From: Eledone cirrhosa
Taxonomy: Eukaryota
Length of the DNA: 64,000 bases
Assembly (NCBI GenBank): GCA_964016885.1
Contig: OZ024760.1
Location: forward strand, 3,596,001 to 3,660,000
Direction of reading: 5' to 3'
Shown here piece after piece: positions 14,189 through 46,235 of the stretch. The position numbers were made by a program, and so were the translations under genes. The notes beneath the pieces were generated by a model. The model had not been told where the DNA came from, did no database searches, and worked only from the letters and a program-made list of their open reading frames with translations. Each line of letters opens with the position of its first letter. Positions within the stretch are counted from its first letter, which is position 1.

Positions 14189-14254
14189 TATTTTATTATA
14201 TATATTTCAAGGGCAACCAAGGTAGATTATGGTGCGCTTTCATCAGATAAAATA
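14189..14254 (-). ncRNA. Type I hammerhead ribozyme motif (HHR family A)
   Basis: Minus strand: tattttat CTGATGA aag cgcacca-taatctacct-tggttgcc ctt GAAA t-atat-a TA^ataaaata; perfect 8-bp stem I, intact core, AUA cleavage triplet. Confidence 0.8.
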
Positions 14255-14467
14255 CAGATTTGTTTTATAAATAAATATTGACATACCCGGAAAAAAGACA
14301 ACCTCAACGGTTGAAATTCGCTGGATAAATAAATTTTTAAGCTTGTTCAATCCCAACAAATTAAATATAACCTCTGCATATATATATATATATATATATA
14401 TATATATATATATATATATATATATATATATATATATACCCTGTCAGGGTATTGTCATGTATCATTT

Positions 14468-14534
14468 TATTGTATCTGATGAGGACGTACTGTTGAACTT
14501 AATTCAGTACCTCTGAAATATGTATAATAAAATA
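14468..14534 (+). ncRNA. Type I hammerhead ribozyme motif (HHR family B)
   Basis: tattgtat CTGATGA ggac gtactg-ttgaacttaatt-cagtac ctct GAAA t-atgt-a TA^ataaaata; stem I 7/8 bp. Confidence 0.7.
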
Positions 14535-14774
14535 TAATTGATCACAAGAATATCTATTTTGTTAATATTTGGAATTAATATTAATAACTCTGAAAAATAT
14601 TTCTTGTAGAGTGCTTCCAATCTATTGTAAAACTCATTCTTTGATGTATTCATTGAATCTTGTTTAACTCTTATATATATATATATATATATATATATAT
14701 ATATATATATATATATATATATATATATATATATATATATATATATATATATATATATATATATATTTATATAT

Positions 14775-14994
14775 ATAGCTTAAGGCCAGATGTGAAATAC
14801 AGACCTCCATTTCAAACTCTTCAGTAAGTATTTTGGTAAACAATGATATATATATATATATATATATATATATATATATATATATATATATATATATATA
14901 TATATATATATATATATATATATCATTGTTTACCAAAATACTTACTGAAGAGTTTGAAATGGAGGTCTGTATTTCACATCTGGCCTTAAGCTAT
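14775..14994. repeat. 220-bp palindrome: perfect arms of about 73 bp of unique sequence around a (TA)n centre
   Basis: atagcttaaggccagatgtgaaatac...gtaaacaatga(ta)n tcattgtttac...gtatttcacatctggccttaagctat. Confidence 0.9.
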
Positions 14995-15349
14995 TATCAG
15001 CTTTAGGGTCCTACAAATGTTTTTAACTTTGTACCCGCTTTGGATGGGCCTGCATATGCGTATGTGTGTGTCTTTTAAACTGTAATAGGATGTGTATGTA
15101 ATAATATGCACATACGTGCTTGTGCCAGATTGGCCTATGAAGGATTGTTCACTACTGTAATATATATCAGGATAGTTAGACCATAACTAGAGAGAGGGGG
15201 AGAAAGAGAGAGAGAGAGAGAGAGAGAGGGGGGAATGTTGGCTACTAGCTATTAAAAATTTTAATTTTTAAGGTGAGAATCCTCTTGAATATCATTAAAT
15301 TATCAACTAAGTAAATTAGAACTGACATTCAGGTAATTGTCATTATACA

Positions 15350-42349: not shown

Positions 42350-42750
42350 ACCACCACCACCACCACTACTACTACTACTACTACTACTACTACTACTACT
42401 ACTACTACTACTACTACTACTACTACTACTACTACCACCACTACTACTACTACTACTACTACTACTACTACTACTACTACTACTACTACTACTACTACTA
42501 CTATTACTACTACTACTACTACTACTATCACTACTACTACTACTACTACTACTACTACTACTACTACTACTACTACTACTACTACTACTACTACTACTAC
42601 CATTAACCACGCTACTGCTACTACTGCTACTACCACTATAACCATTAACCACGCTACTGCTACTACTGCTACTACCACTATAACCATTAACCACGCTACT
42701 GCTACTACTGCTACTACCACTATAACCATTAACCACGCTACTGCTACTAC
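42350..42750. repeat. (ACT)n tract plus a 45-bp repeat containing cattaaccacgctactgctact
   Basis: Direct inspection. Confidence 0.85.
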
Positions 42751-45700
42751 TCAAACCAAACACACTTTCATTCATCTCGTGGCAGCAAGCTACTTTCACT
42801 TTCCAACAAAAATCAGCCTCGCTGTGAAACTGGCCACGTTTTTCCTTTGCATAGTTTTGGCGCTAACAACACACTGCTACGCCTTATAATACTGCTGCTG
42901 CTGCTGCTGCTATGTTGTTATGGTCTCTCTTACATTGCACTCAAACGTAACCCAGAGACCAGCATATATATATATATATACATATATATATATGATATAC
43001 ATATATATATATATATATTACATATTTATATGCATGTGTGCGCGCGCGCATATATAATCTAATTCTTCGTCGTTTCATGTTATTCACAAATATTTTATTA
43101 AAAGCCTTTACGCACCCGAGCACGCATGCGCATACATATACATATCTGTACACACAACCATGTGTTATGTGTATATGTACATATATATGTGTGCGTATAT
43201 ATATATATATATATATATATATATACACACAGAGAGAAAGAAATATATACATACATATTAAACATTGAACGTGTTTGTTTGAATAAGCACCTTATATACA
43301 CACAATTCAATGTGTATATATACATATATACACAAACATACAACACATAAATATATCAATCTTTCTATGTTTAATATATATACATCTAATGGTTTCACTC
43401 ACACGACTGTGGCCATGCTGGAGCAACGGCCTCATGTGTTCACAGAGTATCGGTTCTGGTACTTGAACTATCAACATTGGGAGGTAAAAATCATAAAATT
43501 GACTTTAGGCAAGATTTGAACTAAAAAATTAATATAGATGTCATGAAATATTGTAAAGAAGTTACTTTTTCTTTCTCCCCCCCCCCCTCTTCCCTCCCTC
43601 CACATCTCTCTCTCTCGTTCTCTCTCACTCTCTCTCTTTTCAATCTTTATCTCCTCATACATAAACACACATGTCGGCCTTCCAGCATGGCCGCAGTCTA
43701 ATAACTGTAGTTAGTAAACTAATACATACATACACACACACACACATACATACATACATACATACATACATACATACATACATACATACATATATACATA
43801 CATACATACATACATACATACATACATACATACATACATACATACATACATACATATACATATATACATACATACACACATATATTTATACACACATATA
43901 CACATACACACATACATACACACACAAATATACATACATACACACACACACATACACATACACACACCTGAAGAGGCACATTATTTCCTCTAGGCTACCA
44001 CGCCAATTAATTAAGGTGAGTGGAGGACGTCAGAAGTATCTAGCCCTTCCCCCACCCCTGGGCACTGAGCACTTTTACTATGTCACCAAACACACACACA
44101 CACAAACACACACATACATATATATATATGTTGTTTAGCCCCTGGTTAGCCCTGACCTAGAAGACGTATGATCGAAGGTGTTTCAACCAAGGACATCCAA
44201 TAGGTGGTCGTTCACCTTCTTCAAGATGTCAGTAGGGTGTGGGGTTAAGGGAGTGATGTGGCTGCTATTTCTAGCTAGCAGGTCAAGCAACTATGTAGAA
44301 GCTCCTTGGCTGGCAATGTGTGTTTCTGTGTGTGTGTGTGTATTTGTTGCATGTGTGTTTTAGTGTATTCATTTGTTTGCTTGTATGTGTGTGTGTTGTA
44401 TCTTTAGCCTCGTGCCAACGTCAAAAAAATCAATAAGAAACGACACTCACACACATACACACAAACACACATTTACCCGTGCACACACACCCTTCACGCA
44501 AATACACGCATGCACATACATCACATCACATGTAACGGTAATGGAATGTTTCTGACCAAATTTCACGTGCTCTGCACGACAGTGGAAGGAAGGGGGTGGT
44601 GTTGTATGCAGGCAGTCAGACAAGCAAGGCATGGAGCGTCAGACAGACCAGCAAAGCATGGTGTGACAGGCAGCCAGGCGAACAGACAGACAGACCAGCA
44701 AAGCGTGGTGCGATAGGCAGCCAGGCGGTCAGACAGACTGGCAGACAGACAAGCAAAGAAGCGTGGTAAGACAGGCAGGCAGACAGGCGGACAGACAGAT
44801 AGGCAAGGCAAAAGTGAAAGTAGAATGGCGGGAACGAGATGAGTGACACCGAACTGTCACGATTGGTGGAATAAGTCACATTGTTTGTTATTTTTTTATT
44901 TTTCCCCCTCTTCTCATTTGGCTGGTTTACGAGTTGTTTACAAATAATATTTAGTCGTACGAACCATAACACATACACACACGCGTGTGTGCATGAAAAT
45001 GTGAGGGTCCCAAATGCAGAAAATAAGTGAATGACTATTAATGGTAGATGACTATAAATAATAGTTGAGAAAATTAAGTAAAATTATTCTTAGAGACGGA
45101 AATTTTCTCAAATATACATTTGGGAAACACTTCCAACGCTTCAATAATTTATAAGCTTTAAAGCTTTATATATATATATATATATATATATATATATATA
45201 TATATATATATATATATATATAAAGTTAGTTCCACAACATATTAGCAAACCATCTTCCTAAACTGAGTGCTCTGCTTACTACGGATATAACCTCCAAGTG
45301 TTCTACCACTATATATATCTTTCTCCTAACTTTATTCTTTCCTGATGAAGGACTAATGTCCGTTACGTTGAGGTATTTCCAACAAGCGTGAAACTAAGAC
45401 GAATATATCTCTGTATTTGTCTTTTTAATCTTCAGCTCTATCTCCCTCTCTCATATGTATGTATATACATATATATACATATATATATGTGTGTGTGTGT
45501 GTTAGCTACATACGTGCCCTGAGGGCCTGCAGTTTTGTGCTTACAAAAACTGATTAAACTAACTCGAGAAGTTCTCATAAGCTCGAAAGTCCAGGCCCTT
45601 GGATCATTGATGTAATTTTGTGGTTATGACAGTGTATATATCACTCTACTCGTGTATCGAGTTTAGATTCTTCCTTTTATGCAACCAACAAGCCCATATA

Positions 45701-45770
45701 TATATATATTAATCTCCCCGGTCTCAGCACTGCAGACTCCCCCCTCTCTCTTTTAATATATAAATTTCGA

Positions 45771-45828
45771 ATACCTGATGATGTCACCGGATTCATACTA
45801 AACCCGGTCATTGAAATGTTCATAGTAT
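45771..45828 (+). ncRNA. Type I hammerhead ribozyme motif (third family)
   Basis: atac CTGATGA tgtcaccgg-attcatactaaac-ccggtcatt GAAA t-gttc-a TA^gtat. Confidence 0.55.
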
Positions 45829-46179
45829 AATAAACCTTTAAGGAATTACACCAGTCCAGCCTCCTGGATAATAATTAACTCCGTAATCGCACCACCCACC
45901 AACAACACAAGCGAAGACGGGTGAGTTGCATTACGTCGAGTGCTCTCCCTAATATTACATCAAGGTTGACCATACGGAATGACCAGTTCTATCCAGTGGT
46001 GAACCAACAAACCTATATATATATATATATATATATATATATATATATATATATATATATATATATATATATATATATAAACAATGAGTTATATCCTTTG
46101 TTGATCATTATTCAACAGATTTAAGCCAAAGTAAAAGGCATATATTTCAGGTATATCACTATCTTTTACATTAAACATA

Positions 46180-46235
46180 TTTTATCTGATGAAAGCATAC
46201 CATAATTTGGTATCCTTGAAATACGTATAATAAAA
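46180..46235 (+). ncRNA. Type I hammerhead ribozyme motif (HHR family A)
   Basis: ttttat CTGATGA aag c atacca-taatt-tggtat c ctt GAAA t-acgt-a TA^ataaaa; palindromic stem III tacgta. Confidence 0.8.

What the first reader, a model, noticed from the sequence alone, without database searches (positions are those of the whole stretch)
14189..46235. Dispersed type I hammerhead ribozymes in short repeats docked on (TA)n tracts (Penelope-like/retrozyme system)
Seen: six motifs with the full core CUGAUGA-stem II-GAAA-(1 bp + 4-nt loop)-UA^ closed by an AU-rich stem I, at 14189(-), 14468(+), 23469(+), 28595(-), 45771(+) and 46180(+), plus weaker ones at 9038, 14936 and 28785. All six place AUA at the cleavage position, and stem III is often a palindrome (tatata, tacgta). 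They fall into at least 3 sequence families and mostly sit beside (TA)n. Established: minimal type I hammerheads with palindromic stem III, active as dimers, mark Penelope-like elements and animal retrozymes. Inference: a multi-family non-autonomous HHR retroelement system dense enough to place self-cleaving motifs on both strands of any long transcript here.
Basis: partly seen in the sequence, partly recalled or inferred. Interest (0 to 1): 0.85.

Follow-up and report, generated by a model that had tools for sequence, protein, structure and literature searches.

The report
Hammerhead-tipped ends of Hydra-clade retroelements
The six hammerhead-ribozyme motifs are real and sit in short end-pieces of a known group of animal jumping genes (Hydra-clade Penelope-like elements) pasted into TA repeats; many such pieces start at one fixed base, which likely marks where the element's RNA begins.

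Summary
All six hammerhead cores are present. Their pattern has 84,018 genome matches against 49 for the control. They are not a separate retrozyme system. Four continue upstream, in other copies, into Penelope-like coding sequence with Hydra-clade motifs: RT plus GIY-YIG region for two, endonuclease part only for two. One is an old relative of these. One (45775) belongs to a ~2.0-kb protein-free unit. Hydra elements are already described with hammerheads and (TA)n targets (PMC8557442). Added here: short copies' 5' ends pile up 60-90 nt before the core at an initiator-like YCA site (31 of 57 in 16 nt). Their 3' ends fall at two fixed sites, one long and one short in 48 of 52 two-ended rows. 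Stem II keeps a C·Y mismatch. Likely these are run-off copies of the uncut RNA leader. Cleavage, expression and effects on host transcripts are untested. The scan noted the clade, hairpins and an ORF-less family in this genome, and the fixed-start idea on other DNA.

The parts
14146..14327 (-). Family A end-piece: starts at TATCC (the pile-up site), hammerhead core from 14246, predicted cut after 14197, short 3' end against (TA)n
   Evidence: 97.7% over 171 nt to the pLTR of L232, which follows an RT+EN ORF region at 1.35 kb; direct pLTR-ORF-pLTR copy L103
14328..14377 (+). Inverted piece of the family A tail ending at the long end, against (TA)30
   Evidence: same tail follows the short end in L010, L020, L103
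14439..14671 (+). Family B end-piece between (TA)30 and (TA)47: core at 14476, predicted cut after 14526, long 3' end, ACTC..GAGTGCT hairpin at 14587
   Evidence: 91.5% over 141 nt to L218, whose 3' UTR joins an endonuclease region; L222 repeats the link at 75%; 9,798 exact 17-mer matches, control 0
23466..23575 (+). Old B-like end-piece: core at 23480, predicted cut after 23529, distal stem II decayed, short 3' end
   Evidence: 76% to B copies in L015 and L111
28555..28740 (-). Family G end-piece: core at 28651, predicted cut after 28603, short 3' end, small fold-back at the 5' junction
   Evidence: 87.5% over 168 nt to the pLTR of L091, downstream of a 566-aa RT/linker/GIY-YIG-type frame
28738..29033 (+). 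Family D piece with a minimal hammerhead (core 28789, triplet CUU); no ORF link found
   Evidence: 92-95% copies in L030, L057, L059; shared start near AAGATGGCG in 4 of 10 copies
45761..46018 (+). Family E end-piece: core at 45775, predicted cut after 45824, long tail with hairpin at 45878, against (TA)33; family is a ~2.0-kb protein-free unit
   Evidence: 85% over 270 nt to L287; hammerhead-to-hammerhead units of 2011 and 1965 bp, longest open frames 136 and 105 aa, no tblastn match to PLE proteins inside the units
46085..46285 (+). Family F end-piece: core at 46186, predicted cut after 46229, short 3' end
   Evidence: 91% over 179 nt to L295, where a decayed Hydra-type endonuclease region ends ~0.7 kb upstream; L286 shares the 3' UTR
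52892..52969 (+). Tail-only piece of the young family H (no hammerhead), between (TA)n tracts
   Evidence: 98.8% over 82 nt to L102

Best explanation
The motifs are hammerheads in the terminal repeats (pLTRs) of several Hydra-clade Penelope-like retrotransposon families, and the window's 110-260-bp pieces are likely short cDNAs that the elements' own enzyme pasted into (TA)n. Inferred steps: the RT/GIY-YIG protein nicks (TA)n on both strands. It starts copying inside its RNA at two fixed sites downstream of the ribozyme, one site per DNA end, each a few bases before a small RCTC..GAGY-RCT hairpin. It copies back through the uncut ribozyme. Often it runs off the RNA's 5' end at an initiator-like YCA site 60-90 nt before the core, which gives short copies with shared starts and fold-back junctions. 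Long copies carry the ORF. Family E is a protein-free 2-kb unit with the same signals and is likely moved in trans. The ribozyme is predicted to cut only as a dimer or with protein help.
For: ORF links: L103 is pLTR-ORF-pLTR with family A hammerheads at 558 and 4234; L232, L231, L235 agree; L091/L092 carry family G. Family H has an open 821-aa frame, 150 of 150 scored copies 98-100% identical over the 174-aa C-terminus, and its hammerhead follows ~1.0 kb later in 27 of 30 loci. Hydra motifs match the published description and the Hydra-1_Obim protein seen in the supplement. (TA)5 lies within 300 nt after the cut site in 214 of 235 copies against 33% background; distances are bimodal, ~42-60 and ~130-200 nt. 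Two-ended rows are one long plus one short in 48 of 52. 5' pile-up, A/G group: 31 of 57 copies still extending stop within 16 nt, 0.034 per nt against 0.003-0.006 elsewhere. Genome-wide, 1,701 copies hold the 20-mer just after the site and 413 also hold the 15 nt before it; 18 of 30 inspected loci break there. B: 6 of 31 stop at 62-67 nt, 4 exactly at ACTACC. H: 11 of 32 rows stop at -22 to -17, at CATATG. Published parallels: two internal RT starts, extension on both strands, uncut RNA used (PMC11167929); promoter and initiator inside the pLTR (PMC2377424, PMC3846280).
Against: No RNA evidence for a start site, cleavage or expression: the only RNA runs shared 5% of words and gave one 168-nt contig in what looks like one data set filed twice. 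Family E shows no clear pile-up in 19 copies; the cluster at 15 nt looks like a subfamily boundary. H's site is not at the CTATCC motif that A and B use. Each site contains TAT/ATA, so pairing with the (TA)n target could add to the pile-up. Two-armed insertions are counted twice. Loci come mostly from the start of contig C1 and were chosen for holding the core, so copies beginning at the cut site would be missed. B and F links rest on 2 loci each and on the endonuclease part only. Pfam gave no hit for the 821-aa frame; GIY-YIG was just under cut-off for L103 (22.4 vs 22.6 bits). No tree with published Hydra sequences was built.
Confidence: 0.8

Rival explanations
1. The short pieces are ordinary random 5' truncations of Hydra elements; the shared starts come from RT pausing at an RNA structure or from TA microhomology with the target, not from the RNA's 5' end. 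This shares the family assignment and differs only on the last step.
For: 5' truncation, inversion and tails are standard for PLEs (PMC8557442 section 6 passage). 30 of 87 A/G copies stop earlier than the site and 26 run past it. The sites contain TAT/ATA.
Against: Many other TAT/ATA words lie in the same AT-rich leader without a comparable peak. Fold-back copies are centred on the site (GGATATCC in L368/L369, CATATG in L398). The position recurs at a YCA motif in A, B and H.
Confidence: 0.3
2. One reading: the repeats are small non-autonomous retrozymes that amplify as their own short units, perhaps through circular RNA.
For: Most copies have under 100 nt before the core (17 of 20 A-pattern, 20 of 30 B-pattern loci). 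Family E is protein-free and occurs as hammerhead-unit-hammerhead. Animal retrozymes are proposed to derive from pLTRs (10.64898/2026.07.22.740005, abstract and passages).
Against: The same ends continue into PLE coding sequence in long copies of A, G, B, F and H. No short head-to-tail arrays of A, B, G or F were seen in the loci printed or in the first 100 matches listed. Junctions differ from copy to copy. E's unit is 4-10 times longer than described retrozymes.
Confidence: 0.08
3. The dispersed hammerheads cut host pre-mRNAs often enough to matter, acting as monomers or as mixed dimers through compatible palindromes.
For: About 28 class motifs per Mb. Cores are more conserved than flanks in family A copies found without using the core (15 of 566 against 391 of 4,516 mismatches). 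Helix III inserts of 14476, 23480 and 46186 can cross-pair in principle (-3.2 to -4.7 kcal/mol).
Against: Core conservation can come from selection on the parent elements. Compatible copies in the window are 9-32 kb apart; the only close pair (45775/46186) barely pairs (-1.1). PLE hammerheads were weak in vitro (PMC4209133) and no RNA ends were found at the cut site in anole (PMC11167929). No host gene was identified in the window.
Confidence: 0.08

Closest known systems
Hydra clade of C-terminal EN+ Penelope-like elements (Craig et al. 2021, PMC8557442; section 11 read whole, passages elsewhere, supplement part 2 and search hits), e.g. Hydra-1_Obim
   Same: RT then C-terminal GIY-YIG region, DKT, CxCX5C linker, CxxC and CxH around E and N, hammerhead near the 3' end, (TA)n targets, inverted truncated copy and one-sided tail.
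   Different: Elements here are longer (3' UTR 1.0-1.6 kb) and very abundant (10,257 exact matches for family H alone). Their hammerheads have an 8-bp A-U stem I, a long stem II with a C·Y mismatch at pair 4 and a shorter palindromic helix III than any row of the paper's File S2. The tail is 85-145 nt, not 30-40.
Poseidon of Anolis carolinensis, internal RT initiation (Frangieh et al. 2024, PMC11167929; parts 1-2 of 4 read)
   Same: Two internal RT start sites that define the tail, AT-rich targets, extension on both strands, uncut RNA as template.
   Different: Different clade. In the parts read it does not describe a fixed 5' end of short genomic copies. Here both start sites lie before the ORF start (ATG at +194 and +218).
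Metazoan non-LTR retrozymes (Cervera and de la Pena 2020, PMC7229834, passages; Li et al. 2026, 10.64898/2026.07.22.740005, part 1 of 5 and passages)
   Same: Non-coding, type I hammerhead, weak palindromic helix III; family E has one hammerhead per unit.
   Different: Retrozymes are 150-450-bp tandem units with circular RNAs. Four window families have coding relatives; E is ~2.0 kb and seen at most as one unit between two hammerheads.
Minimal hammerheads of metazoan PLEs (Cervera and de la Pena 2014, PMC4209133; parts 1-2 of 4 read)
   Same: Thousands of dispersed single motifs in families, few inside full elements, opposite-strand pairs 100-700 bp apart; family D (28789) fits the minimal form.
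   Different: The six main motifs keep a small helix III and a longer stem I.

Membership tests
Type I hammerhead ribozyme | Core CUGANGA, GAAA, UH in type I order | tested here: met
   6 of 6
Type I hammerhead ribozyme | Stems I and II supported by covariation | tested here: met
   278 distinct motifs: stem II pairs 2, 3, 5, 6 paired in 95-98% with several pair types; pair 4 unpaired in 99% (C·C 215, C·U 47); stem I 8 pairs in most families. Counts are copies, not independent events.
Type I hammerhead ribozyme | Self-cleavage | not testable with these tools
   needs in vitro assay
Hydra-clade PLE | Single ORF, RT followed by C-terminal GIY-YIG region | tested here: met
   821-aa frame in L102 with FDIASYY, YRDD, FLDV and Y..Y.GST; GIY-YIG E=1.5e-4, just under cut-off, for L103; no Pfam hit for L102
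Hydra-clade PLE | DKG changed to DKT; RWK motif, no GxKF | tested here: met
   HSDKTNNLY in L102 and KSDKTNNLY in L103; RLRW followed by T/I/R, not K, at the RWK position
Hydra-clade PLE | Linker CxCX5C; no CCHH; CxxC and CxH beside E and N | tested here: met
   CNCRIKNKC, ICNLCLNE, INRR..ICLH
Hydra-clade PLE | Insertion into (TA)n | tested here: met
   214 of 235 copies against 33% background
Hydra-clade PLE | pLTR with hammerhead, partial tandem, inverted copy, tail | tested here: met
   L103, L099, L232, L102
Hydra-clade PLE | RT phylogeny inside the clade | not tested
   reference sequences were only viewed in the supplement, not available as data; comparison by eye
Non-LTR retrozyme | No coding capacity in the family | tested here: not met
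   not met for A, G (and H); endonuclease-region link for B, F; met only for E
Non-LTR retrozyme | Short (150-450 bp) head-to-tail units, each with a hammerhead | tested here: not met
   window copies are single; E units are 1965 and 2011 bp
Non-LTR retrozyme | Abundant linear and circular unit RNAs | tested here: inconclusive
   no usable RNA run

The most novel reading that the evidence does not exclude
The tens of thousands of short inserts are complete run-off cDNAs of the element's 5' leader, from transcription start through the uncut hammerhead to one of two hairpin-marked RT start sites. Both nicked DNA ends are primed, one from each site. This would map Hydra-element promoters from DNA alone. 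It would also explain the one-sided tail and head-to-head palindromes, and suggest how Penelope elements rebuild the upstream pLTR, a step the papers read call unexplained. The conserved C·Y mismatch would mark an undescribed hammerhead subtype.
Probability: 0.5. Interest if true: 0.6.

Novelty: new member of a known kind. Interest (0 to 1): 0.33.

Why it matters
As a class this is known: Hydra-clade elements with hammerheads in (TA)n, including one from an octopus, are in print. The value here is scale and testability. A young family with open 821-aa frames, fixed 3' ends and a fixed 5' pile-up gives exact coordinates for testing where the RNA starts, where RT starts and whether the ribozyme cuts. 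How pLTRs are regenerated and what the hammerhead does are open in PMC2377424 and PMC8557442. At ~28 motifs per Mb any real cutting of host RNA would matter, but nothing here shows it. The count is not a record: 126,247 are reported for axolotl (PMC7229834).

Tried and rejected
Rfam scan: swamped by microsatellite miRNA models; no hammerhead among the 150 rows shown. ORFs in the window: only simple-repeat frames, and no tblastn match to five PLE proteins. The GIY-YIG family search returned mainly Neptune-type elements; their pLTRs carry different ribozymes and are not the parents of the six motifs. My first label 'Nematis-like' was dropped after reading the Hydra description. An apparent B-to-ORF link in L191/L298 was rejected: a (TA)38 tract separates them and that ORF ends in another family's hammerhead. 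An apparent E-to-ORF link in L168 and L228 was rejected as neighbouring insertions. Single-sequence structure prediction of the 799-aa protein gave pLDDT 33 and was not used. RNA runs were uninformative. 5' end analysis for G alone and for F did not run (script stopped). A 3' splice site as the cause of the pile-up was considered (CAG|G in A) and judged unlikely, because copies do not continue into a shared upstream exon. Literature searches found no paper describing fixed 5' ends of short PLE copies; none of the PLE papers listed contains 'strong-stop'. The library lacks most subscription journals, and bioRxiv supplements were not seen.
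Full report
Observation. The six cores are in the sequence, with CUGAUGA at 14246(-), 14476(+), 23480(+), 28651(-), 45775(+) and 46186(+). Each is followed by stem II, GAAA, a six-letter helix III insert and UA, so the triplet is AUA in 6 of 6. A stem-checking scan finds 4 of the 6 and gives 0.01-0.04 per shuffled window. 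In the 3.0-Gb genome the class pattern has 84,018 matches against 49 for the reversed control. Exact family words give 18,009 (A and relatives), 9,798 (B) and 10,257 (H), each with 0 control matches. Of the weaker motifs, 28789 is a real minimal hammerhead, 9038-9130 is decayed and 14945 is not a hammerhead.

What they belong to. Pairs of class motifs 2-5 kb apart enclose Penelope-like ORFs. L103 is pLTR-ORF-pLTR with family A hammerheads on both sides of a frameshifted ORF. L232 has the ORF region followed by the A hammerhead, with an inverted copy in front; the window's 14246 copy is 97.7% identical to its pLTR. L091 and L092 do the same for family G, 87.5% to the 28651 copy. B and F connect through their 3' UTRs to endonuclease-region sequence in two loci each. 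The 23480 copy is a 76% B relative. A further family, H, present in the window only as a tail at 52892, has an open 821-aa frame; the 150 scored copies of its C-terminus are 98-100% identical and its hammerhead follows in 27 of 30 loci.

Clade. The proteins show DKT, CxCX5C, no CCHH, and CxxC/CxH beside E and N. These are the features given for the Hydra clade (PMC8557442 section 11). The L102 protein lines up by eye with Hydra-1_Obim from its first residues. Pfam does not see the RT and only marginally the endonuclease. No tree was built. The supplement lists (TA)n for nearly all Hydra families and canonical hammerheads for most.

The exception. Family E (45775) reads from one hammerhead through tail and body to the next hammerhead in 2011 and 1965 bp. 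It has no open frame over 136 aa and no match to the PLE proteins tested. In 7 of 14 loci printed the tail runs straight into the body. It is best read as a non-autonomous Hydra-type element.

Ribozyme anatomy. Over 278 distinct motifs, stem II pairs 2, 3, 5 and 6 are paired in 95-98%, with pair types that change between families. Pair 4 is unpaired in 99%, nearly always C·C or C·U. Helix III inserts are TATGTA, TATATA, TGCGCA, TGATCA and TACGTA; 60% are exact palindromes and TATGTA is one with G·U. In 52 family A copies found without using the core, core positions differ in 15 of 566 cells and others in 391 of 4,516; this includes subfamily differences and so points to selection on parent elements. 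A monomer helix III of 2-3 A-U pairs predicts weak cutting. PMC4209133 found no monomer activity and low dimer activity for one PLE motif. PMC11167929 found cutting only with the protein, and insertion did not need it.

Ends. (TA)5 follows within 300 nt in 214 of 235 copies (33% background), at two distances per family. Where both ends could be classed, 48 of 52 rows have one long and one short end (two-armed insertions count twice, and 93 rows had no inverted piece or an unclassed end). In A, H and E a small RCTC..GAGY-RCT hairpin lies a few bases after each end. I had seen the second hairpin before consulting earlier notes; the first came from them and was then checked.

Starts. For 87 copies picked by the A pattern, 31 of the 57 that reach the CTATCC motif stop within 16 nt; the rate is 0.034 per nt against 0.003-0.006 elsewhere. 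Genome-wide, 1,701 copies hold the 20-mer after the site and 413 also hold the 15 nt before it; 18 of 30 loci inspected break there. Fold-back copies are centred on it. B stops at ACTACC in 4 of 31, with two more within 3 nt. H stops at CATATG in 11 of 32 rows. E shows no clear peak. The window's 14246 copy starts at this site. Each site reads YCA, like the initiator TCACT noted in a rotifer pLTR (PMC3846280), and the Drosophila Penelope promoter lies in the pLTR (PMC2377424).

Mechanism. Shown: the motifs, the ORF links, the two 3' ends, the long-short pairing, the 5' pile-up. Inferred: nicking of (TA)n by the element's endonuclease, priming on both strands at two hairpin-marked sites, copying of uncut RNA, and run-off at the transcription start. 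I put the Hydra-pLTR assignment at about 0.95 and the run-off reading at about 0.55. RT pausing or TA microhomology is the main rival for the last step. RNA data could not help.

Novelty. New families of a known clade. The fixed start was not found in the papers searched, but this scan has noted it on other DNA, and the clade, hairpins and an ORF-less family in this genome. Those notes are not independent support. The host looks like an octopus from recalled repeat features and the published Hydra-1_Obim; that is a guess, not a result.

Noticed in passing
L046, L047, L051, L054, L055, L060 (3' UTR about 1.1 kb after the ORF); L052, L057, L031: Young Neptune-type elements (938-aa frame, RT and GIY-YIG hits) carry a hammerhead-like motif with a U3-A8 core (TTGAAAA..GAAA/GCAA CCGG TA), the variant reported for Schistosoma in PMC4209133; they also end in (TA)n at two sites.
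   Followed up: partly
window 28738-29033: Family D copies share a start near AAGATGGCG in 4 of 10 copies; this resembles a YY1-type start-site word (recalled, not tested). No ORF link found.
   Followed up: partly
window 14775-14994: Near-perfect 70-bp inverted repeat around (TA)39, with a fragment of the same arm at about 14115-14133; no match in the fetched loci.
   Followed up: partly
window 45342(+) and 32744(-): Two more CUGAUGA-stem II motifs whose GAAA is mutated, 81% alike over 52 nt; likely decayed minimal hammerheads of another family.
   Followed up: partly
window 46315-46470: A non-hammerhead fold-back repeat (GAGCTC core) that recurs between (TA)n tracts beside many fetched loci.
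   Followed up: no
window 55052-62400: 71-bp minisatellite, 103 copies, 96% matches.
   Followed up: no
L224, L226, L230 (family E body): The 2-kb protein-free unit holds a tRNA-like SINE-type segment about 600 nt before the hammerhead (identified from recall, not tested).
   Followed up: no
L296 (G000:C10:51301500-51310000): About 6-kb tandem repeat unit carrying F-, E- and B-like hammerheads together; probably a segmental duplication.
   Followed up: no
L102 ORF residues about 590-655: Asn/Pro/Thr-rich insert between the RT thumb and the CxC linker in family H, like the N-rich inserts described for rotifer PLEs (PMC3846280).
   Followed up: no
L081:1835-2533: C2H2 zinc-finger array exon next to a family B insertion.
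   Followed up: no
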